Source of the DNA: a virus
Taxonomy: Duplodnaviria > Heunggongvirae > Uroviricota > Caudoviricetes
IMG/VR virus record: IMGVR_UViG_2639762884_000001
DNA: 64,000 nucleotides
Strand: one strand, 5' to 3'
In this document: positions 3,217 through 61,695 of the stretch, in pieces
How the letters are laid out: each line of letters begins with the position of its first letter
Numbering within the stretch: position 1 is the stretch's first letter
Notes under the pieces: generated by a model
What the model was told of the DNA's origin: nothing
Databases searched by the model: none
Seen by the model: the letters and a program-made list of their open reading frames with translations, nothing else
Made by a program: the position numbers and the translations under genes

Positions 3217-3600
3217 ATGCTGAACGAGAAACGTTCTATACAAACTATTCGCGATTGCACGAGTATTATCGAGACTCATGTGCTGAATCAGCACAAGCTT
3301 GAAGTACGTAAGCTCAATAATGACGCTATTGAACCGGAAGACTCACGCTTCATCGTTACCTTCAAAGACGATGTTGAGCGCGCTGGTGCAAGCGTGAAGC
3401 CATTAGCTGAAGCAATTTACCTGAATGGTCGTGTTCGTTTTGTAGTCAAGCCAGCTAAACAGTACCCTGAGCTGTCTCGTTTTATCGAGGCTTTTTCGGA
3501 GGTTATTGAACATTCTATTCGCCGCTTCTTACGCAATCATGGTAGCATTGTCAGCACGGTTAAGGCTGATGATTCTGCTACAAAATGGCTCCTACACTAG
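3217..3600 (+). CDS. hypothetical protein
   Basis: ORF with AAGGTGGA RBS before ATG 3217. Confidence 0.5.
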   Translation: MLNEKRSIQTIRDCTSIIETHVLNQHKLEVRKLNNDAIEPEDSRFIVTFKDDVERAGASVKPLAEAIYLNGRVRFVVKPAKQYPELSRFIEAFSEVIEHSIRRFLRNHGSIVSTVKADDSATKWLLH

Positions 3601-4337
3601 ATAGCGCATATTCAAAAGATCTAAGCGAGTTTCCTCATAAAGGGGAGACTCGTGTTGTTCGTTTTGGCTTTCTTATCAATGAAGCCTCCCTCTATAAAAT
3701 CTCAGAAATTGAAATCATTGAACCAGAAGATGACATTTGCCTGTATGTCTCTATGGAACGTGTAGGTGCGCGCGACCAAGGCGACCTGAGCGAATTCATC
3801 TTAGATCGAGCGGATGAAGATGCCCCTGAAGAAGAGATTATCAAAGAGGTGCTCCAGTCCGGGCTTCTGGACGAAAACAAAAATACGATCGCTGGTAGGA
3901 TAGCTCTGCGTGAATATAGTTTTGTTGAAGACGGTAATGAGATCGAATGTTACCAGGTAGCCGGTGTCGAAACTGTCAGAGAGCGTCGTCAGCGAGGATT
4001 GTGTCACCGTACCTATCTCTTTCTTCTTCATTGGTATGAGCATTTAGTCTGCGACGATACACAAACCATTCCTGGTGCTAAGATCTGGGCAGGGCCTCTC
4101 ATGCGAACCGGCGATGTGCGTATATACAATGCCAAAACAGAAACGTTCGAGGATGTGTTAGGTGAGTACGGGATGGGGAAAGAAACCGGATTTTTGCCGT
4201 GGAACAGAGGATTGTTGCTTGATGCAGAGTTAAGCTCTTGGCTCCCAAACAAAGTGCAAGTTAACGTTCAGAAATTTATCGTACTTATCATCTCCCGCAA
4301 AACAAGAACTCCAGTAGGTTTATACCTAAAAGATTAA
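3585..4337 (+). CDS. hypothetical protein
   Basis: 250-aa ORF overlapping the upstream gene by 16 nt; followed by a terminator. Confidence 0.5.
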   Translation: MAPTLDSAYSKDLSEFPHKGETRVVRFGFLINEASLYKISEIEIIEPEDDICLYVSMERVGARDQGDLSEFILDRADEDAPEEEIIKEVLQSGLLDENKNTIAGRIALREYSFVEDGNEIECYQVAGVETVRERRQRGLCHRTYLFLLHWYEHLVCDDTQTIPGAKIWAGPLMRTGDVRIYNAKTETFEDVLGEYGMGKETGFLPWNRGLLLDAELSSWLPNKVQVNVQKFIVLIISRKTRTPVGLYLKD

Positions 4338-4342
4338 AAATC

Positions 4343-4366
4343 AGGCGACTTTGGTCGCCTTTTTGT
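4343..4366 (+). terminator. rho-independent terminator
   Basis: aggcgactttggtcgcct stem followed by ttttt. Confidence 0.6.
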
Positions 4367-4462
4367 TAACAGCCATTGATTCTCGCCTAAAAATTCTAAG
4401 GCAGCACCTACCATTTAACCTTTACACCACAGCCGTAGGCATTTAGGCTATATCACATATAA

Positions 4463-4480
4463 GAAAACAAGTTGTTTCAG
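4463..4480. promoter_or_regulatory. GAAAACAA-N-TTGTTT palindromic motif upstream of parA
   Basis: gaaaacaagttgtttcag, 50 nt upstream of ATG 4513; one of six near-identical sites. Confidence 0.45.
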
Positions 4481-4512
4481 ACGATAATTATATACGCAAA
4501 GGGAACTCTCCA

Positions 4513-5181
4513 ATGACCAAGATCTTTGTGGTTGGCGGCACAAAGGGCGGGCCTGGCAAATCCACCGTTGCCCAGCAAATTGCCGTTTGCCTGAAAGTCA
4601 AAAAGAAGAAGAAGGTTTATATCACCGATATAGATATTCAGCGCACGACAACGAGCTGGTGTGAAGACCGTCGACAGAACGAAGATCTTGAGCTGATTCC
4701 TTTTGCATACGTTCAAGATGACATCATTAAGCACCTAAAATCGCTTCAGGGTAGAGCTGAGTATGTAGTGGTAGATGCTGGTGGCTTTGACTCCGAAATT
4801 CAGCGACAAGCGATGCTGATGGCCGACGTTATCATTATCCCGCTGCGTCCTAAGCGTCGTGATTTGAAATCTTTACGTGACATCGATCCTATTATCGACA
4901 ATGTTCGCAATGTAAACGACAAAGTGAAAGTCCGCGCGGTCATGAACCAATGCCCGGCTTTGCCATCACAAGTGTCTCGCATTCTAGCGGCTAAAGAGAT
5001 TGTCGAGACGTTTGGCATCGAGTCTGCGCCAGTCAATCTATATAACCGCAACGTCTATGATGATGCGGAAGAGTCTGGTCGTTCTATCTTTGAAATGACC
5101 GGTAGCGAGCGCGACAAAAAGGCGGAAGCCGAGTTTGAAGAATTTGTAGATTATCTGTTGAGTCTGGAGGAAGAAGAATAA
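4513..5181 (+). CDS. parA: ParA-family partition ATPase (small type)
   Basis: Deviant Walker A GGTKGGPGKST near N-terminus; 222 aa; followed by small partner gene. Confidence 0.8.
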   Translation: MTKIFVVGGTKGGPGKSTVAQQIAVCLKVKKKKKVYITDIDIQRTTTSWCEDRRQNEDLELIPFAYVQDDIIKHLKSLQGRAEYVVVDAGGFDSEIQRQAMLMADVIIIPLRPKRRDLKSLRDIDPIIDNVRNVNDKVKVRAVMNQCPALPSQVSRILAAKEIVETFGIESAPVNLYNRNVYDDAEESGRSIFEMTGSERDKKAEAEFEEFVDYLLSLEEEE

Positions 5182-5540
5182 TGTCCATGAAAATGGGTGA
5201 CCTAGCAAAGCGCAAAGAGCCTGATGCACCGGCTAAGAACACAACTCCTTTGCGCCAACCAATCAGACCACAGGGACGCCCGACTCGTGGCAAAGAGAAA
5301 ATTAAAAGCCGCACGATGTCACTGGAAGACGAATACTTCGAACTGCTGGAGATGATGAAGTTCATCCCTCGCTTCGAGAAGTTCACCCGTTCTGACGTGA
5401 TTCGCGCAGCCATTTTCCATCTGGCAGAGAAGTCACCGCAGGAAATCGAGGACATCGTGAAACTTAACGAGGCGATCACTGCTGCCGATGTCACGATGCG
5501 TACCGATGAAATTAAACGCGAGTTAATGAAGAAAGGTTGA
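5181..5540 (+). CDS. small partition partner protein (ParB/ParG-like centromere-binding protein)
   Basis: 119-aa basic protein translationally coupled to parA (ATG overlaps stop); position only, no motif proof. Confidence 0.45.
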   Translation: MSMKMGDLAKRKEPDAPAKNTTPLRQPIRPQGRPTRGKEKIKSRTMSLEDEYFELLEMMKFIPRFEKFTRSDVIRAAIFHLAEKSPQEIEDIVKLNEAITAADVTMRTDEIKRELMKKG

Positions 5541-5546
5541 TATAAA

Positions 5547-5581
5547 TCTCTAAGGCTGGTCTGCATTGGACAGCCTTAGAA
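5547..5581. terminator. bidirectional stem-loop between convergent genes (also candidate ParB site)
   Basis: ctctaaggctg ... cagccttagaa perfect inverted repeat. Confidence 0.45.
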
Positions 5582-5600
5582 ATATTTCGTTCTATGAAAG

Positions 5601-6659
5601 CTATTCGTAGTTAAGCTCACCGAACAGACTGAACATCAAGTCACCATCCAAAATTTCAAAGGGCAACTCGACATACTCATCCTTATGTCTCGGAATTGCG
5701 TTGCCGTCGTTAGGGGCATTCTTGGTATAACCTTTTACATGTTTACCGTTTTCTTTTGTATACGGCAGCACGACAATTCGACCGTGATTTTTTGAAATGA
5801 TAGTTCCTTCTTTCCAGAGCGTATTGCCTCTTGAGGTGGTTTCGCTTTCGCTAGCAACTTTAACACTCCAACCTACCTGATTTTTGTCCTCAAACCAGAA
5901 AACAAAGTTGCCAACAACCAGTACCTTTTGCCCATTCCTGAGAGCTTCATCCAGCATTCTTTTTACGCTGGCGAGTTGCAGTAACCGGTTAGCACGCGGC
6001 AGAAGCATTGAGCGAATAGTCGCTTTTGTTTTTCCCCAATGTGCAGCGCCTGATAAACCAAAACCTCTGGCTATGCGTTCTTGGTAGCAGATCTTCGCTG
6101 TCTTAGCTTTGTTGTTATATGAACATTCCCAAGTGTTAGGAGCAACGAGTTGAAGTGAAACTTGGAATTTGGGAAGAAAAACAAAATGTAAGTAAGGCAT
6201 CTCGCTTAGCACGTCAAAAAGGGGTTGACGCAAAGTTTCGTAATCTGGGTTAATTATTAACTCATTTAATGTCACTCGCGGATCGTTGGCGTGTGCCTTA
6301 ATTGCTTCGTTGAGCATTATATGCTCTTCATCCATGAGACGTGATTTGGCTTTGAGTGCTTTGTCAACTTTCAAACGCAATGACTTCTTTTGAAACATAG
6401 ATAGAGGAAGTTTTTCAATGTCAAAGCTCACGTTTTTATTCAGCTCTAATGCCGCTTTTCTTGCTTCAGGATAGTTATCGTAGTCGTCATCAAAAGCGTG
6501 GTTTGGCATACCACGATCAACATATCGCCGATACCAAGCAAGGGTTCCATCATTACGGAGTTTCAGACAGAACATCGACCATTTATTCCGTTCATATTTA
6601 GGCTGAGGCCAAAAAGCCAGTTCGGGAAGGCCATATCCTGGAAGTCTATTCATGCGCAT
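5601..6659 (-). CDS. hypothetical protein
   Basis: Long minus-strand ORF (table 5601..6674, GTG); ATG at 6659 preferred; no recognised motif. Confidence 0.5.
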   Translation of the reverse strand: MRMNRLPGYGLPELAFWPQPKYERNKWSMFCLKLRNDGTLAWYRRYVDRGMPNHAFDDDYDNYPEARKAALELNKNVSFDIEKLPLSMFQKKSLRLKVDKALKAKSRLMDEEHIMLNEAIKAHANDPRVTLNELIINPDYETLRQPLFDVLSEMPYLHFVFLPKFQVSLQLVAPNTWECSYNNKAKTAKICYQERIARGFGLSGAAHWGKTKATIRSMLLPRANRLLQLASVKRMLDEALRNGQKVLVVGNFVFWFEDKNQVGWSVKVASESETTSRGNTLWKEGTIISKNHGRIVVLPYTKENGKHVKGYTKNAPNDGNAIPRHKDEYVELPFEILDGDLMFSLFGELNYE

Positions 6660-6777
6660 GGTGACAATATCCACGAGGCTAAAACACTGATTCTAACATG
6701 ATCTCCCTTGATAAATCTGTCAATGACATAGCATCTGGGGTTGGAGTCAAATTATGTTGTTCTTGGTATCCATTAGG

Positions 6778-7689: not shown

Positions 7690-7698
7690 CTAATACTA

Positions 7699-7716
7699 GA
7701 AAACAATTTGTTTAAA
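7699..7716. promoter_or_regulatory. GAAAACAA-N-TTGTTT palindromic motif upstream of helicase
   Basis: gaaaacaatttgtttaaa, 34 nt upstream of ATG 7733. Confidence 0.45.
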
Positions 7717-7732
7717 AAACAAAGGAAAGCAC

Positions 7733-19095: not shown

Positions 19096-20199
19096 ATGAA
19101 AAATAGCTTTGACAGAGCACGCGCTGCGGAGAACACCTCAAAAGAGGCGATAGAGTATCTCGAAAGAGCATCTCAAATGCAGGCCGTTATGATCTCCCAG
19201 GTCAGCAATGACATGAGATTCTCGGACGCATTCATGTTATTCACTCGCTTATCTCTGCTGATAACCAGACGTCGGCCAGAGATCGCTGTTCATTGTATTT
19301 TGATACATGTTTTGCCGCACATTGCCGATGTAAAAGTAAGTGACATTAATAGGTTCATGGTGAACCAACTGGTCAACCCACTAATACTGGATGGCAAAAT
19401 TGTTATGGGCCGCCGCGTTTTCTCTCTGATGAAGCAGTTCCTTAGCTGGTGCGCCTTCCAGGGGATGATAGACGTGTCACCGTTAAACGATATGTCACTT
19501 AACAAAGTTGCCGGTGGCGCAAAGCCCACACCTCGCGAGCGGAAGCTGACCGACGCAGAGGTATGGGTGTTCTGGAATATATGGGACTACTTCAATGTGT
19601 GTGCTGGTACAAAATGGGCGGCCAGGCTGTGTCTTGTATCAGCAAGACGACCTGACGAAGTACTGCGGGCTAAAAAAAGTGAGTTCAATCTTAAGCGTGG
19701 GGTTTGGAATCAAGGCAAGAGGAACAAATCTGCCCGTGAGCATTCTCTGCCTTTAAGCTCATTAATGCGCACTTGTATTGAAGAGTTGTTCGAATATGGT
19801 AAAGACAGCCAGTGGCTCGTGCCTTCGAATAAAAAAATCGGGAAAGACCTTCCTATGTCTAAAGTGGCAATAGCCCAGGCATTACGTCGTATTCTGGAAC
19901 GACCAGAACTGATGGAGCTTGAGCCATTTACACCCCGAGATTTGCGCCGTACTGCGCGTAGTTACTTCCCAGCATTAGGCATAAGCCAGGAGGTATCACG
20001 TAAAATCATGAACCACAGTCTTGAGGGGATAGATCGGGTCTACGACCGGCACGATTATATGGACGAGATGCGAGACGCCTTAGAAAGTTTCTCGACGTAC
20101 ATCGCATCAATCGTAGAGCAACCGGATTTAGACGAAATTGACCACAAATTTAAGGGAGATCGTCTATCAACAGAGCTTATTCGTGTAAATTTTTCATAG
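19096..20199 (+). CDS. int: tyrosine site-specific recombinase (phage integrase family)
   Basis: C-terminal catalytic signature ...RDLRRTARSYF...HSLEGIDRVYDRHDY; core-binding-like middle domain; N-terminal arm-binding region short or atypical. Confidence 0.75.
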   Translation: MKNSFDRARAAENTSKEAIEYLERASQMQAVMISQVSNDMRFSDAFMLFTRLSLLITRRRPEIAVHCILIHVLPHIADVKVSDINRFMVNQLVNPLILDGKIVMGRRVFSLMKQFLSWCAFQGMIDVSPLNDMSLNKVAGGAKPTPRERKLTDAEVWVFWNIWDYFNVCAGTKWAARLCLVSARRPDEVLRAKKSEFNLKRGVWNQGKRNKSAREHSLPLSSLMRTCIEELFEYGKDSQWLVPSNKKIGKDLPMSKVAIAQALRRILERPELMELEPFTPRDLRRTARSYFPALGISQEVSRKIMNHSLEGIDRVYDRHDYMDEMRDALESFSTYIASIVEQPDLDEIDHKFKGDRLSTELIRVNFS

Positions 20200-20580
20200 A
20201 GACTTTATGGCCTCAACAACCTTTTGTGATGCGCCTTTCTCTTTACCGAATCGCTCGTTATATGCAGCAAGAACCTGTTTTTCGTCCTCGTTAAGAGGAG
20301 CAGTGCCTTCTTTGTATAAAAATGCTGCGAGTTCGGGTTGGCGTTCTTCCAGCACCATCATCATAAGACGACTTGGCTCAATACCCAGTGCCAGCGCCAG
20401 CGGACGAACCTTATCGATAGGCAAAGGAATTTTGCCGCTTTTAATTAAAGAAAGGTTGTTGGCGTTTTTATACCCAATTGTTTTGGCTATCTGGGCCTGG
20501 CTCATAGGTGAGGATTCAATCAACCCTGCGATAAAAGCAGCGTAGCGACTTTCTATAAATTCAATCTTGTTATCAGACAT
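20194..20580 (-). CDS. HTH transcriptional regulator (XRE/Cro-CI-like)
   Basis: HTH segment MSQAQIAKTIGYKNANNLSLIKSG; 128 aa; convergent with recombinase; AAAGG RBS. Confidence 0.6.
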   Translation of the reverse strand: MSDNKIEFIESRYAAFIAGLIESSPMSQAQIAKTIGYKNANNLSLIKSGKIPLPIDKVRPLALALGIEPSRLMMMVLEERQPELAAFLYKEGTAPLNEDEKQVLAAYNERFGKEKGASQKVVEAIKSL

Positions 20581-20831
20581 GGTTACAACCTTTGCGCGTT
20601 CAATTCTCTCTGGTAAGTGCTTACCGATATTACATCAAAGGTTAGGGTTGTAAAGCTATTATCATTTTTTTCGATAGGCACTTAAAAGACCGGTTAAAGG
20701 CCATTGCACGGAGAAAAATTAGCCCAAAACAGGTAAGAAAATCAACTTGCATATGATATGTATGTATTCAGTATTGATACAAATTTTAGTAGTATTCCTT
20801 ACCATAGTATAAGTTAGAATGGATTGATTGA

Positions 20832-21044
20832 ATGAACACCACTATTTCCAGCCTAATCGCTCTTGAGATCGGACACGTACAGAAATTAGCTGATGAGTGT
20901 GTAGCTGACATCCTCACCGATCTACCGAATGAGCAGATTCAGGTTGGTGTGAATGACACAACTGGATTTATATTCGAACTTAACAACAAACGCTTCACGC
21001 TTCTCAATACCGGCTCCGGGTCTTTAGCCGTCAGAATCTGTTAA
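20832..21044 (+). CDS. hypothetical small protein
   Basis: 70-aa ORF divergent from the HTH regulator; weak RBS. Confidence 0.35.
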   Translation: MNTTISSLIALEIGHVQKLADECVADILTDLPNEQIQVGVNDTTGFIFELNNKRFTLLNTGSGSLAVRIC

Positions 21045-21142
21045 CCCCTCTTCTCCCTGCGCGAATGGCTTAGTTCCCTGTTCGCGCAGTGCTACATTAA
21101 ACACACTAGTAAATAATTTGTTTTCATAACAAAGGATTAGCC

Positions 21143-34660: not shown

Positions 34661-34677
34661 CGCAATTATCTTATTAA

Positions 34678-34695
34678 GAAAACAATTTGTTTAAA
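34678..34695. promoter_or_regulatory. GAAAACAA-N-TTGTTT palindromic motif
   Basis: gaaaacaatttgtttaaa, 31 nt upstream of ATG 34709. Confidence 0.45.
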
Positions 34696-34708
34696 AGGAT
34701 AAGAAAAC

Positions 34709-36275: not shown

Positions 36276-36808
36276 ACCGCTGACAGCATACACAATCAAC
36301 TGCCGCTGATAGCATATCGAGAGTCTATCTCACCGCTCACAGCATACTTTACTCGATTTTTTACCGCTGACAGCATACTTAAGACATTGCATGAATAATG
36401 TGTACCGGTATGGGTATAACCAGAACAAAATTACCGCTGGCAGCATACGAAGGTCTGATATATGCCATTAATTACCGCTGATAGCATATCCAAACAAAAA
36501 TTCCTCAATAAAACACCGCTGACAGCATACGTTCTATCAGGGAGCAGCAGGGAATAAATACCTTTCACTACAAGTAATCAGCGCAATGGGAATAGAATGT
36601 TAGTGAGCGCAAACCTATATGGAATGCACTCTTCGAGGTTAGTAACCACTGGGGAGGTATAAAAGAGCATTGAGTGGTGATAGATGATTTACCGCTCACA
36701 GCATACGTTTATCTCACTATACCGCTGGTAGCATATCTTTAACCGTTCACAGCATACTTTTCAGAAAAATAGCCGCTGATAGCATACATTTCACCGCTGA
36801 CAGCATAT
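36276..36808. repeat. iteron array I (12 copies of ACCGCTGACAGCATAC-like 16-mer) downstream of repA
   Basis: Copies start near 36276, 36302, 36332, 36363, 36433, 36474, 36515, 36691, 36721, 36742, 36772, 36793; variants CCGCT(G/C)(A/G)(C/T)AGCATA(C/T). Confidence 0.8.
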
Positions 36809-37902
36809 CAAAGCAGTTTGAGACTATTGGAAAGGATCTCAATCATCTTGATATTTTCAGGCGTCAAATTCTGCGAAAGTTCAGTTATCTTGTTGATAAT
36901 GTTCTGTTTAGCATCAATTTCCCCGGCTTTCTCATCTGGTTTTTTGGGTTCGATGTCTTCAGGTTTTGGCGGTGCGACTTTAAGTTTTGGATTGCGGCTG
37001 TGAATCTGGATATAGATCGACCGCCCTCGCTTAATCTCGCTGTATTCGAGATAGCCCAAATCTTGGAGAGCTTTTAAGCCGTTACGTATAGTCTGATTCT
37101 GCGAGCTTACATTCCTGCTACTCAAATTGAGTCGCGCACGCAATCGAGCAAGCGATACCGGCGCAGGCTTGGTTGGAAGACTTTCGATGAAGGTGTACAG
37201 AGCCTGTGCTGTTTCTTTGCGTGGTAGCTTATTGATAACCTTTAACTGCAAAAGAACCTTATGGTCAAAGCGATATAGTTCGGCCAGCTTCGGTTCTGCA
37301 TAGAACACCACCGTATCTTTCTGCTCGTTGTAGTCCACGCTATTGATGAGGTGCACCATCAGAAGCGAGATCTTGTTAGAGCCGTCGACGTTCTTTTCTT
37401 CATACGTTCTCTGGAAAGACAGAGTTGTACGCATGATCTTCAAAAGACTGTTTGTAAGCCGGTCGCGGAGTGTTTTGCGGATCTGTGACGATGGATAGCC
37501 ACAAAACTTCGCAAATTTCGTGATGCTTAACTCGACACGACCGTTAGGTTCGCCGTATTCTGCCAGCGAACGCACAACGCCCACCCACGTTTTGAAATCA
37601 TGATCCATGTCGAGACGAGGACCGGTTATCTTGATATCGGAATAGCCTTCAGAACGGGCTACTTCGAGCTGAACAAGCTCCTTTGAAGCATCGATCTCAT
37701 TTGGCTTGTTACGCTTGCTGTATTTTGTCCCCTTGAGCGTGGGCACGAACAATCCCAGCCGCATCAACGCAATTGGTTGGACTGTATTGTTGCTATTAGG
37801 GACAAGTTCCCCTGTGTACAATTCAAGGGAACCTTCTTCAAAGTTGTCGAGATTATCTTCTACTTCTTTGTTATTTTTACCTTTTTTATTTTTTGTGGAC
37901 AT
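36808..37902 (-). CDS. repA: plasmid-type replication initiator (RepA-like, iteron-binding)
   Basis: 365-aa basic protein flanked on both sides by iterons; ATG 37902 with AAAGG RBS (table start 38022 would run through the origin iterons); call rests on context. Confidence 0.6.
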   Translation of the reverse strand: MSTKNKKGKNNKEVEDNLDNFEEGSLELYTGELVPNSNNTVQPIALMRLGLFVPTLKGTKYSKRNKPNEIDASKELVQLEVARSEGYSDIKITGPRLDMDHDFKTWVGVVRSLAEYGEPNGRVELSITKFAKFCGYPSSQIRKTLRDRLTNSLLKIMRTTLSFQRTYEEKNVDGSNKISLLMVHLINSVDYNEQKDTVVFYAEPKLAELYRFDHKVLLQLKVINKLPRKETAQALYTFIESLPTKPAPVSLARLRARLNLSSRNVSSQNQTIRNGLKALQDLGYLEYSEIKRGRSIYIQIHSRNPKLKVAPPKPEDIEPKKPDEKAGEIDAKQNIINKITELSQNLTPENIKMIEILSNSLKLL

Positions 37903-37922
37903 GTGGACACCTTTGTCATTCA

Positions 37923-38024
37923 ACCGCTGACAGCATACTTGATTTGCCGCTGACAGAATACCAAAAACAGTTGGCAGCATACGGTGAACCGCTGACAGAC
38001 TATCAATTACCGCTGACAGCATAC
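37923..38024. repeat. iteron array II (4-5 copies) upstream of repA: candidate origin
   Basis: Same 16-mer at ~37923, 37946, 37971 (partial), 37988, 38009 with ~21-25 bp spacing. Confidence 0.75.
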
Positions 38025-38059: not shown

Positions 38060-38140
38060 ACAGCGATCGGGGATCTTATTTGATCTATACAAGGATCTAT
38101 CTATGGATCTCTTTATTAGGATCTATCCTGTGGATATGTG
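38060..38140. promoter_or_regulatory. origin-adjacent GATC cluster with DnaA-box-like site
   Basis: Six GATC within ~60 bp (repeated GGATCT/AGGATCTAT units) and TGTGGATAT at ~38129-38137 (one mismatch to TGTGGATAA). Confidence 0.55.
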
Positions 38141-46092: not shown

Positions 46093-46115
46093 GTAAGCCT
46101 TGTTTAAACACATAA

Positions 46116-46133
46116 GATAACAACTTGTTTAAA
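46116..46133. promoter_or_regulatory. GATAACAA-N-TTGTTT palindromic motif upstream of nrdB
   Basis: gataacaacttgtttaaa, 46 nt upstream of ATG 46162. Confidence 0.45.
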
Positions 46134-46161
46134 CGCACCAAAAAAGAAAAAGGAAAAACAC

Positions 46162-56283: not shown

Positions 56284-56337
56284 CGGTTGTTAGTGCATAT
56301 GCATTGACCGTCTTTGCGTAAGCAATTTATGTAACCA

Positions 56338-56355
56338 GAAAACAATTTGTTTTGA
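56338..56355. promoter_or_regulatory. GAAAACAA-N-TTGTTT palindromic motif
   Basis: gaaaacaatttgttttga, 39 nt upstream of ATG 56377. Confidence 0.45.
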
Positions 56356-56376
56356 CAAATAGCAAAAGGAAAACAC

Positions 56377-56992: not shown

Positions 56993-57066
56993 GACCGAAA
57001 TAGAGAGTTTGCACCTTTACGTTTAGCTTGCTCCCCTTTTATGCCACATCACAATAAAGCCAATAA

Positions 57067-57084
57067 GAAAACAACTTGTTTAAG
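57067..57084. promoter_or_regulatory. GAAAACAA-N-TTGTTT palindromic motif
   Basis: gaaaacaacttgtttaag, 33 nt upstream of ATG 57100. Confidence 0.45.
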
Positions 57085-57099
57085 CATTAGGAAAAACAC

Positions 57100-61588: not shown

Positions 61589-61625
61589 AGGCCATAACTT
61601 ATGGCCTTAAATAAATTGTTTTCTA
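61589..61625 (+). terminator. rho-independent terminator
   Basis: aaggccat aact tatggcctt followed by aaataaattgtttt. Confidence 0.6.
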
Positions 61626-61695
61626 CCTTTTCTTATTTGTGAAAATAAACCAGCACTTGGTAGTACTTATGTAACAGCAAAGAAGAGAAAAACAC

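What the first reader, a model, noticed from the sequence alone, without database searches (positions are those of the whole stretch)
4385..5581. Small ParA/ParB-type partition cassette with candidate centromere repeats
A 222-aa ParA with deviant Walker A (GGTKGGPGKST) is translationally coupled to a 119-aa basic protein, the layout of small type Ib partition systems. The heptamer CTAAGGC / GCCTTAG recurs upstream of parA (~4396-4448 with TAGGC variants) and as a perfect inverted repeat just after the partner gene (5547-5581), suggesting parS-like sites.
Basis: partly seen in the sequence, partly recalled or inferred. Interest (0 to 1): 0.5.

Follow-up and report, generated by a model that had tools for sequence, protein, structure and literature searches.

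The report
Phage-plasmid partition genes; proposed centromere repeats unsupported
This is the ordinary plasmid-partition gene pair of an SSU5/pHCM2-type phage-plasmid (a small ParA ATPase plus a small DNA-binding adaptor), but the CTAAGGC repeats proposed as its centromere belong to the neighbouring genes, and the real control region is a 60-bp stretch just upstream of parA.

Summary
The two genes are real. parA (4513-5181) encodes a 222-aa ParF-like deviant-Walker ATPase. It overlaps (TAATG) a 119-aa basic protein (5181-5540). The window is an SSU5/pHCM2-like phage-plasmid, 100% identical over the queried 1.4-kb par region (4300-5700) to E. coli plasmid CP056300.1. The pair is conserved in about 800 plasmids and is expressed in a lysogen.

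The partner belongs to a narrow family of unknown function. Weak evidence suggests a ribbon-helix-helix fold with a disordered basic N-terminal tail, as in type Ib centromere-binding proteins.

The proposed parS repeats fail:
- CTAAGGC occurs at chance frequency in the window.
- The upstream copy is present only when the upstream 250-aa gene is present (13/13 vs 0/76 loci).
- The downstream inverted repeat is present only when the convergent 357-aa gene is present (11/11 vs 0/78). It is a stable hairpin, and other lineages have unrelated hairpins at the same place, so it is most likely a terminator.

The constrained cis region is 4421-4480. It holds a promoter-like TTTACA-17-TAGGCT and the palindrome AAACAAGTTGTTT. 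That palindrome belongs to a dispersed motif that sits directly upstream of the first gene in at least 12 gene groups. It persists in pMT1, which lacks this cassette. The centromere itself remains unidentified.

Verdict: a new member of a known kind, of low to moderate interest.

The parts
4421..4480 (+). Ultra-conserved 60-bp cis-acting region upstream of parA, holding the promoter and leader. It is the best candidate for the operator and/or centromere.
   Evidence: Mean column conservation is 0.977 over 71 distinct sequences, with 50 of 60 columns invariant. parA third codon positions score 0.80. It holds the two longest invariant runs of the cassette, 4438-4452 and 4456-4470. It is retained next to at least 8 unrelated upstream contexts.
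4421..4426 (+). -35-like hexamer TTTACA
   Evidence: Read from the sequence. TTTACA-17-TAGGCT is the best sigma-70 match upstream of parA. The same layout occurs in the distant lineages L090 (TTTACA-17-TAGGCT), L091 (TTTACA-17-TAGTAT) and L004 (TTGTCA-17-TAGGCT). The transcription start is not mapped.
4444..4449 (+). -10-like hexamer TAGGCT.
   Evidence: The consensus scanner did not call it because only 3 of 6 positions match TATAAT.
4459..4483 (+). Leader motif ATAAGAAAACAAGTTGTTTCAGACG, with the 13-bp palindrome AAACAAGTTGTTT at 4465-4477. It is one member of a dispersed motif family.
   Evidence: The pattern occurs 8 times in the window against 0.4 expected; 0 of 100 shuffles reach 8. PWM hits precede parA, the dnaB-like helicase, a CobT-like gene, nrdB and others. 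It is conserved upstream of parA in L004, L088, L089 and L091.
4500..4505 (+). Shine-Dalgarno-like AAGGGA for parA
   Evidence: Read from the sequence, 7 nt before the ATG at 4513.
4513..5181 (+). parA: 222-aa deviant-Walker-A ATPase (KGGPGKS at residues 11-17) with no N-terminal DNA-binding domain
   Evidence: Pfam AAA_31, MipZ, CbiA, ParA and VirC1. phrog_164 'ParA-like partition protein', E 2e-51. NCBIfam ParA_partition at 115 bits, below the 180 cut-off. PDB ParF 4dzz/5u1g at E 3e-10.
5166..5170 (+). GGAGG ribosome-binding site of the partner gene, inside the end of parA
   Evidence: The junction 5179-5190 is invariant in 71 sequences.
5181..5540 (+). Partner gene: 119-aa candidate centromere-binding adaptor. 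It has an N-terminal G-D-L-A-K-R motif, a basic disordered linker, a probable ribbon-helix-helix core (about residues 41-84) and a C-terminal helical extension.
5546..5583 (.). Stem-loop between the convergent partner gene and the 357-aa gene (5601-6674, minus strand).
   Evidence: -19.1 kcal/mol on the + strand and -18.5 on the - strand, z -4.5 and -4.2. Present only with the 357-aa gene, 11/11 vs 0/78. A variant with changes on both arms (T-A to C-G, G-C to G-U) still folds at -22.7 kcal/mol. Other lineages have unrelated hairpins at the same place. No strong U-tract, so the terminator scan did not call it.

Best explanation
The cassette is the plasmid-partition module of an SSU5/pHCM2-type phage-plasmid and works like a type Ib (ParF/ParG-type) system.

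Shown:
- A ParF-like ATPase gene is translationally coupled to a small basic protein gene.
- The pair keeps the same position (after the lysis genes, before the DnaB-like helicase gene) across the whole family.
- Both genes are transcribed in the lysogenic (plasmid) state.

Inferred:
- The 119-aa protein dimerises through a ribbon-helix-helix core and binds DNA in or near the invariant 60-bp promoter/leader segment (4421-4480). This would repress its own operon and form the partition complex.
- Its conserved N-terminal G-D-L-A-K-R tail stimulates the ATPase of nucleoid-bound ParA, which then moves plasmid copies apart.
- The operon starts at TTTACA-17-TAGGCT and, in this window, ends at the hairpin 5546-5583.

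The CTAAGGC copies play no part. They belong to the modules on either side of the cassette.
For: ParA identity:
- Pfam, PHROG, NCBIfam and PDB matches; Walker A KGGPGKS.

Coupling and conservation:
- TAATG overlap with an invariant junction.
- 737-797 plasmids carry the pair.
- Partner homologues down to 26-30% identity all follow a ParA-like gene in the same synteny.
- The partner family is narrow, with 18 representatives in 1.84 billion proteins.

Partner architecture:
- Matches what PMC3074162 describes for type Ib centromere-binding proteins: a flexible N-terminal tail plus an RHH core that sequence searches cannot see.
- Supporting results.

Cis region:
- 4421-4480 is conserved at 0.977 against 0.80 at silent sites. 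It holds the longest invariant runs of the cassette.

Expression in an LF82 lysogen:
- Cyrano ParA 49.8, partner 89.1 and next gene 54.6. The master repressor is at 95.8 and the helicase, primase and CobT-like genes at about 8-21 (S1 Table of PMC9928086).

Other points:
- No other plausible partition system is annotated in Cyrano. Its 'MinD' is an ApbC homologue next to metG, and its two ParB-domain genes sit in the packaging operon.
- Cyrano is present at about 5.5 copies per LF82 bacterium, so it is low-copy.
Against: - No stabilisation, DNA-binding or ATPase experiment on this system was found.
- The RHH fold is not established. All hits are below threshold, the AF2 model is a low-confidence monomer (pLDDT 63.5), Foldseek found nothing, and there is no similarity to ParG.
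- The conserved region has no array of iterated repeats, which a type Ib centromere usually has. It holds only one 13-bp palindrome and two TAGGC copies.
- That palindrome is shared with many unrelated operons and persists in pMT1, which lacks the cassette.
Confidence: 0.75

Rival explanations
1. One reading: CTAAGGC/GCCTTAG copies upstream (4396-4448) and downstream (5547-5581) of the operon are parS-like sites bound by the 119-aa protein. The arrangement would resemble parC1/parC2 flanking par2 of pB171.
For: The sequences exist at the stated places. The flanks also match: AAAATTCTAAGGC against AAATCTCTAAGGC, 11 of 13. The precedent of flanking centromeres in pB171 par2 is from my own knowledge and was not tested here.
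Against: - The heptamer is at chance frequency.
- The upstream copy lies outside the conserved block, where column conservation is 0.52.
- Each element is perfectly linked to a neighbouring accessory gene and not to the cassette.
- 70 of 90 cassette loci have neither element.
- SSU5, Cyrano and pJN2-26 have a gene starting directly at the partner's stop codon.
- Other lineages have different hairpins at the same position.
- A variant with changes on both arms of the stem, including a G-U pair, still folds. This points to an RNA structure.
Confidence: 0.03
2. Dispersed-centromere or global-regulator model. The 119-aa protein binds the palindrome AAACAAnTTGTTT not only in its own leader but at all of the 12 or more promoter-proximal copies around the element. 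It would then act both as a multi-site centromere protein and as a silencer of phage operons, like omega of pSM19035, KorB of RK2, or SopB on the dispersed sites of N15.
For: - The only dyad in the invariant par leader is this palindrome.
- It recurs 8 times in the window against 0.4 expected, and further copies lie in the rest of the plasmid. Each is 1-45 nt before the ribosome-binding site of the first gene of a gene group.
- The motif stays conserved upstream of dnaB while its flanks change.
- The partner's putative DNA-reading strand is the most conserved part of the protein.
- The diverged Klebsiella lineage L004 piles up about 7 AAACA/TGTTT half-sites around its par promoter.
- The master repressor's switch region uses a different repeat, GGTAAG/CTTACC.
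- The omega, KorB and N15 precedents are from my own knowledge.
Against: - pMT1 has no ParA or partner homologue, yet it keeps good copies of the motif at the corresponding operons.
- The Moellerella relative keeps a partner with nearly the same strand but lacks the dispersed palindrome. It has instead a par-specific direct repeat, AAATAACAAGGC x2.
- L090 and L094 lack the palindrome in the par leader.
- In the lysogen the par operon is expressed while other motif-bearing operons are near background, so the motif alone does not set expression.
Confidence: 0.15
3. The pair is not a partition system. It would be a toxin-antitoxin-like, regulatory or positioning module. Examples are the Cyrano annotation of the partner as a RelE/ParE toxin, or a VirC1/VirC2-like or MipZ-like function.
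For: Cyrano annotates the partner as 'RelE/ParE putative toxin'. Pfam also gives MipZ and, at the cut-off, VirC1 matches for the ATPase. VirC2 being an RHH protein is from my own knowledge.
Against: - The partner has no RelE/ParE or any other Pfam match and no meaningful defence-system match.
- The best solved relative of the ATPase is the partition protein ParF. NCBIfam's best family is ParA_partition.
- The host element is a low-copy plasmid of about 110 kb with no other annotated partition system.
Confidence: 0.07

Closest known systems
ParF/ParG/parH of plasmid TP228 (type Ib partition)
   Same: A small deviant-Walker ATPase is the closest solved relative of this ParA (4dzz/5u1g, E 3e-10, residues 9-199). 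A small partner gene lies directly downstream. The partner has a disordered N-terminal tail followed by a probable RHH core. The cis region is expected upstream of the operon.
   Different: The partner shows no detectable similarity to ParG (hhalign probability 0.1%; my ParG sequence was checked against 1P94). It is longer (119 vs 76 aa) and has about 35 extra C-terminal helical residues. No array of short repeats like parH was found upstream.
ParA/ParB/parS of pCXC100 and delta/omega of pSM19035 (type Ib with RHH centromere-binding proteins)
   Same: [quoted passage not shown] The layout here is the same.
   Different: Those centromeres are arrays of repeats spanning about 90 bp. Here the constrained region is 60 bp with a single palindrome. 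Binding has not been tested.
SegA/SegB of Sulfolobus solfataricus
Dispersed operator or centromere sites: N15 SopB sites, RK2 KorB OB sites, P1 C1 operators, mycobacteriophage stoperators (from my own knowledge)
   Same: A short motif recurs at many promoter-proximal places around a mobile element, including the leader of the par operon.
   Different: The binding protein is unknown. The motif survives in pMT1 without the cassette. It sits at a fixed place just downstream of a -10-like hexamer. That placement fits a shared promoter or leader element as well as it fits an operator.

Membership tests
Type Ib plasmid partition system (criteria as in PMC3074162) | Small Walker-type ParA with a deviant Walker A and no N-terminal HTH domain | tested here: met
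   222 aa. KGGPGKS lies at residues 11-17, so the ATPase core starts at the N-terminus. Pfam AAA_31, MipZ and CbiA. ParF is the best PDB match.
Type Ib plasmid partition system | Small centromere-binding protein encoded directly downstream in the same operon | tested here: met
   The 119-aa ORF overlaps the parA stop codon (TAATG), and the junction is invariant. The pairing is conserved down to 26-30% identity. DNA binding itself was not tested.
Type Ib plasmid partition system | The centromere-binding protein has a dimeric ribbon-helix-helix domain with a flexible N-terminal tail | tested here: inconclusive
Type Ib plasmid partition system | A centromere of iterated repeats upstream of the operon that also serves as the operator | tested here: inconclusive
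A strongly constrained 60-bp promoter/leader segment exists. It holds only one 13-bp palindrome and two TAGGC copies, and no tandem array was found.
Type Ib plasmid partition system | The cassette stabilises a plasmid, and the partner stimulates ParA ATPase and autoregulates the operon | not testable with these tools
   No experiments were found in the held literature. The only functional data are expression levels in a lysogen.
ParG family (TP228 ParG) | Sequence or profile similarity to ParG | tested here: not met
   hhalign of the 14-sequence family alignment against ParG gave probability 0.1% and E 0.5. No Pfam ParG hit.
Type Ia ParABS (P1/F/pMT1 type) | Large ParA with an N-terminal HTH domain; ParB with an HTH and a ParB N-terminal domain; parS downstream | tested here: not met
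   ParA is 222 aa with no N-terminal extension. The partner has no ParB domain. The downstream inverted repeat is not conserved with the cassette.
RelE/ParE toxin (the Cyrano annotation of the partner) | Match to RelE/ParE family profiles | tested here: not met
   No Pfam, NCBIfam or PADLOC match of that kind, even at E up to 10.
Intrinsic (Rho-independent) terminator, for the hairpin 5546-5583 | Stable G+C-containing stem-loop followed by a U-tract at the end of a transcription unit | tested here: inconclusive
   The stem-loop is stable on both strands. It lies between convergent stop codons. Hairpins at this position vary in sequence between lineages. The U-tract is weak (AGAAAUAUUU on the + strand, AGAGAUUUAU on the - strand), and the scanner did not call it.

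The most novel reading that the evidence does not exclude
The 119-aa partner is not only a centromere-binding adaptor. It would also be the protein that recognises the palindrome tAAGAAAACAAnTTGTTTaa at the start of 12 or more gene groups of the phage-plasmid. One small RHH protein, made from the par operon in the plasmid state, would then both mark the element for segregation at many dispersed sites and hold down phage replication, nucleotide-metabolism and packaging operons. Partition and lysogeny control would be coupled.
Probability: 0.12. Interest if true: 0.65.

Novelty: new member of a known kind. Interest (0 to 1): 0.27.

Why it matters
SSU5/pHCM2-like phage-plasmids are common in clinical Escherichia, Klebsiella, Salmonella and Shigella, and some carry resistance genes. 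Knowing which genes and which DNA segment keep them in the cell matters for incompatibility typing, curing strategies and vector design.

This work assigns a likely role to a protein family so far labelled 'hypothetical' or mislabelled 'RelE/ParE toxin'. It removes a false centromere candidate. It also narrows the search for the real site to 60 bp (4421-4480).

The dispersed leader palindrome, seen in passing, may be the more useful lead. It marks what looks like a shared control element of most operons of these elements.

Tried and rejected
- **CTAAGGC as a repeat family.** Rejected by the count and by linkage to the neighbouring genes.
- **TAGGC as an enriched pentamer.** Rejected: 63 copies against 82 expected. 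My own estimate, not simulated, is that three copies of some pentamer in about 170 nt is expected by chance.
- **Tandem or iterated repeats near parA.** None found.
- **Known RNA families in 4200-5800.** None.
- **Sequence or profile searches of the partner against solved structures.** Only noise.
- **Profile comparison with ParG.** No similarity.
- **Defence-system profiles.** Nothing meaningful.
- **Cassette moved alone into non-phage plasmids, which would define a minimal unit.** The large plasmids examined are cointegrates that carry the whole phage-plasmid.
- **Cis site hidden inside the coding DNA.** No island of silent-site conservation stands out, apart from the gene junction.
- **Master repressor as binder of the palindrome.** Unlikely, because its own switch region has GGTAAG/CTTACC repeats and no palindrome.
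- **Second ParA-like gene ('MinD', CYRAN_99).** It is an ApbC homologue next to metG, not a partition gene.
- **Literature search for the motif sequence and for experiments on the SSU5 par genes.** Nothing found.
Full report
**Where the window comes from.** The region 4300-5700 is 100% identical to E. coli plasmid CP056300.1. The core of the region is 97.5% identical to Escherichia phage Cyrano (pLF82) and 86% identical to Salmonella phage SSU5. The neighbouring genes are tail fibre, holin, endolysin and spanins upstream, and a DnaB-like helicase and a primase downstream. The window is therefore part of an SSU5/pHCM2-type phage-plasmid. 737 plasmid records match the DNA. 797 encode the small protein. 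Most of these are non-mobilizable replicons of about 110 kb from Klebsiella, Escherichia, Enterobacter, Salmonella and Citrobacter.

**Checking the observation.**
- Both ORFs are as described. parA is 4513-5181 (222 aa, GGTKGGPGKST at residues 8-18). The partner is 5181-5540 (119 aa).
- The stop of parA and the start of the partner overlap as TAATG, and GGAGG lies 10 nt upstream. The junction 5179-5190 is invariant in 71 distinct sequences.
- The partner is basic: pI 9.6 overall and 11.4 for residues 1-45.
- CTAAGGC is at 4396-4402, 5550-5556 and, on the minus strand, 5573-5579.
- The downstream inverted repeat is 12/13 complementary with a perfect 9-bp core. It is not perfect over the whole stated span.
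- The heptamer is not enriched: 5 copies against 4.77 expected.
- TAGGC is below expectation: 63 against 82.

**The proposed centromere repeats belong to the neighbours.**
- Alignment with SSU5, Cyrano and pJN2-26 shows that homology upstream of parA begins at about 4405. This is just to the right of the CTAAGGC copy.
- Homology ends at the partner's stop codon. In those three genomes another plus-strand gene starts there and no hairpin is present.
- I examined 89-90 loci that carry the cassette: the window itself, 80 IMG/VR contigs, and phage, plasmid and assembly loci.
- Of the 90, 70 have neither element, 11 have only the upstream heptamer, 6 have only the hairpin and 3 have both.
- The upstream heptamer is present in 13 of 13 loci that carry the upstream 250-aa gene (3585-4337) and in 0 of 76 that lack it.
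- The hairpin is present in 11 of 11 loci that carry the convergent 357-aa gene (5601-6674) and in 0 of 78 that lack it.
- The hairpin folds at -19.1 kcal/mol on the plus strand and -18.5 on the minus strand.
- One natural variant changes both arms of the stem (T-A to C-G, and G-C to G-U) and still folds, at -22.7 kcal/mol.
- Lineages with other downstream genes carry unrelated hairpins of -13 to -23 kcal/mol at the same position.
- A structure kept by position but not by sequence, tolerating a G-U pair, and sitting between convergent stop codons is most simply a terminator or RNA-stabilising stem. Its U-tract is weak, and the consensus scanner did not call it.

**What is constrained.**
- Over 71 distinct sequences, the noncoding segment 4421-4480 has mean column conservation 0.977, with 50 of 60 columns invariant. 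parA third codon positions score 0.80. The flank containing CTAAGGC (4393-4404) scores 0.52.
- The two longest invariant runs of the whole cassette are 4438-4452 and 4456-4470.
- The block is retained next to at least eight unrelated upstream contexts.
- The block reads TTTACA (4421-4426), a 17-bp spacer, TAGGCT (4444-4449), and then ATATCACATATAAGAAAACAAGTTGTTTCA.
- The same promoter-like layout appears in distant lineages: TTTACA-17-TAGGCT in L090, TTTACA-17-TAGTAT in L091 and TTGTCA-17-TAGGCT in L004.
- The two conserved 'TAGGC variants' (4436, 4444) therefore fall in the spacer and the -10 hexamer of the likely par promoter. The transcription start has not been mapped.
- The near-invariance of the spacer in the close lineages is unexplained. 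It may mark a protein-binding site, but L091 has an unrelated spacer.

**The ATPase.**
- ParA matches Pfam AAA_31, MipZ, CbiA, ParA and, at the cut-off, VirC1.
- It matches phrog_164 'ParA-like partition protein' at E 2e-51.
- It matches NCBIfam ParA_partition at 115 bits, below the 180-bit cut-off.
- Its best solved relatives are TP228 ParF and the TP228 ParA-ParB complex (4dzz, 5u1g; E 3e-10).
- It has no N-terminal extension, so it is of the small (type Ib) kind.

**The partner.**
- It has no Pfam family. It belongs to phrog_5111, of unknown function.
- Its family is narrow. A word-indexed search found 25 clusters. A full HMMER profile search of 1.84 billion representatives found only 18.
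- Every homologue whose context I could read follows a ParA-like gene in the same synteny. This includes members at 26-30% identity.
- The alignment shows three conserved parts:
  - an N-terminal hydrophobic-G-(D/G)-L-(A/G)-K motif, with L8 invariant and K10 nearly so;
  - the segment I41-x-S43-R44-x-x-S47-x-E49;
  - the segment R70-S71-D72-V73-x-R75-A76-A77.
- The last two segments read like the strand and the start of the second helix of a ribbon-helix-helix protein.
- Support for that fold is consistent but weak:
  - RHH_1 at E 0.005, 0.035 and 0.11 in three members, over the same part of the profile;
  - the aCcr1 RHH family at E 2e-4;
  - an AF2 monomer in which residues 1-47 are coil (1-25 below pLDDT 50) and helices span 48-60 and 70-84, with two further helices after them, at pLDDT only 63.5;
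- Foldseek and sequence searches of solved structures found nothing.
- There is no similarity to ParG (my ParG sequence was verified against 1P94).
- PMC3074162 notes that type Ib centromere-binding proteins are too divergent to recognise by sequence, and that they share an RHH core with a flexible N-terminal tail. The partner fits that description but is not shown to be one.
- The resemblance of the N-terminal motif to ParA-activating peptides of other ParB proteins is my own inference.

**Function in vivo.** I found no experimental study of this par system.
- The LF82 transcriptome tables give Cyrano ParA 49.8, partner 89.1 and the next gene 54.6.
- The master repressor is at 95.8. The helicase is at 21, the primase at 11 and the CobT-like gene at 8.
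- The operon is therefore on in the plasmid state.
- Cyrano is present at about 5.5 copies per LF82 bacterium.
- Cyrano's annotation shows no other plausible partition system. Its 'MinD' is an ApbC homologue next to metG. The two ParB-domain genes lie in the packaging operon.
- The Cyrano label 'RelE/ParE putative toxin' for the partner has no profile support.

**A dispersed motif, noticed while looking for the operator.**
- The palindrome in the par leader (AAACAAGTTGTTT, 4465-4477) is not unique. AAACAANTTGTTT with at most one mismatch occurs 8 times in the window against 0.44 expected. None of 100 shuffles reaches 8.
- A weight matrix gives strong plus-strand hits at 4459, 7695, 21105, 34674, 46112, 56334 and 57063.
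- Further hits lie in the rest of CP056300.1, at about record positions 78503, 75694, 75210, 73543 and 64402/64427. The last pair lies before the packaging operon.
- Each hit lies 1-45 nt before the ribosome-binding site of the first gene of a gene group and has the same orientation as the gene. The genes include parA, the DnaB-like helicase, a CobT-like gene, nrdB and a TerB-like gene.
- A -10-like hexamer usually ends 11-15 nt upstream of the palindrome core, with two sites closer (3 and 7 nt) and the packaging-operon sites showing none. The motif would then fall in the first 20 or so transcribed bases.
- The motif is conserved upstream of dnaB in SSU5, Cyrano, pJN2-26 and the distant L091 lineage, while its flanks change.
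- The master repressor's own switch region has a different repeat, GGTAAG/CTTACC, and no copy of the palindrome.
- No paper in the held library contains the motif sequence.

**Does the partner bind that motif?**
- For:
  - The palindrome is the only dyad in the invariant par leader.
  - The diverged Klebsiella lineage L004 accumulates about seven AAACA/TGTTT half-sites around its par promoter.
- Against:
  - Yersinia pestis pMT1 uses a P1-type ParAB and has no homologue of this ParA or partner. It still keeps good copies of the motif at the corresponding operons.
  - The Moellerella relative keeps a partner with nearly the same strand but lacks the dispersed palindrome. Its par leader carries a direct repeat found nowhere else in that plasmid, AAATAACAAGGC x2.
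  - L090 and L094 lack the palindrome in the par leader.
- I rate this reading at roughly one in eight to one in six. The more likely view is that the palindrome is a shared promoter or operator element of the phage-plasmid. The partner's own site would then lie elsewhere in 4421-4480 or remain unrecognised.

**Verdict.**
- The gene pair is a real and conserved type Ib-like partition module: a ParF-like ATPase plus a probable RHH adaptor. The ATPase is already annotated as ParA in SSU5 and Cyrano.
- The partner's role is a reasonable but untested assignment for a family of unknown function.
- The true site is not identified, but it most likely lies in the 60-bp invariant promoter/leader.
- This is a new member of a known kind, of modest interest. 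The dispersed leader palindrome is the more intriguing by-product.

Noticed in passing
window 4459-4483, 7695-7719, 21105-21129, 34674-34698, 46112-46136, 56334-56358, 57063-57087 (weaker: 61603-61627); also CP056300.1 at about 78503, 75694, 75210, 73543 and 64402/64427: A roughly 20-bp motif, tAAGAAAACAAnTTGTTTaa (palindromic core AAACAAnTTGTTT), sits just upstream of the ribosome-binding site of the first gene of at least 12 gene groups of the phage-plasmid, always in the gene's orientation. At most sites a -10-like hexamer ends about 11-15 nt upstream. It occurs 8 times against 0.4 expected in the window. It is conserved in SSU5, Cyrano, Klebsiella relatives and pMT1, but largely absent from a Moellerella relative. 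The binding factor is unknown, and no paper in the held library contains the motif sequence.
   Followed up: partly
window 20581-20831: This is the region between the HTH 'putative repressor' homologue (20194-20580, minus strand) and a 70-aa gene (20832-21044). It carries GGTAAG/CTTACC repeats, for example GGTAAGTGCTTACC at 20612-20625, with further copies near 20732 and 20798. These are probably the operators of the lysogeny switch and are distinct from the dispersed palindrome.
   Followed up: partly
window 38082-38127: A tandem array GATCTATCTATG x3.7 lies next to the end of the RepA-homologue gene (36808-38022, minus strand). It is probably made of iterons of the plasmid origin, and it contains GATC sites.
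   Followed up: no
window 5181-5540; Cyrano CYRAN_29; SSU5_034: Public annotations of the partner gene disagree. Cyrano calls it 'RelE/ParE putative toxin', which has no profile support. SSU5 RefSeq starts it at an internal ATG (96 aa), which cuts off the conserved N-terminal G-D-L-A-K-R motif.
   Followed up: yes
window 3585-4337 and 5601-6674 (minus strand): The genes on either side of the par cassette are swapped between lineages: phrog_3307 and phrog_22329 here; KacT/antitoxin, KAP NTPase, Abi_2 or ApeA-like genes elsewhere. The par cassette thus sits between two hot spots for accessory and defence-like cargo, with junctions at about 4405 and 5543.
   Followed up: partly
L099/L100 (Moellerella plasmid NZ_CP093251.1) at about 15360-15400; L006 1688-1725: In this distant relative the par leader carries a direct repeat, AAATAACAAGGC x2, spaced 20 bp apart and found nowhere else in the plasmid. 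It is a candidate lineage-specific binding site for the partner protein.
   Followed up: partly
L087 (CP056300.1 78633-81924); Cyrano CYRAN_99/100: The phage-plasmid carries host-like metG (methionyl-tRNA synthetase) and apbC genes. The apbC homologue is annotated 'MinD' in Cyrano, where it is expressed in the lysogen.
   Followed up: no
L094 1258-1734: In a metagenomic relative, the 3' part of a tRNA-like sequence lies in the intergenic region upstream of parA. This may be an integration or recombination scar.
   Followed up: no
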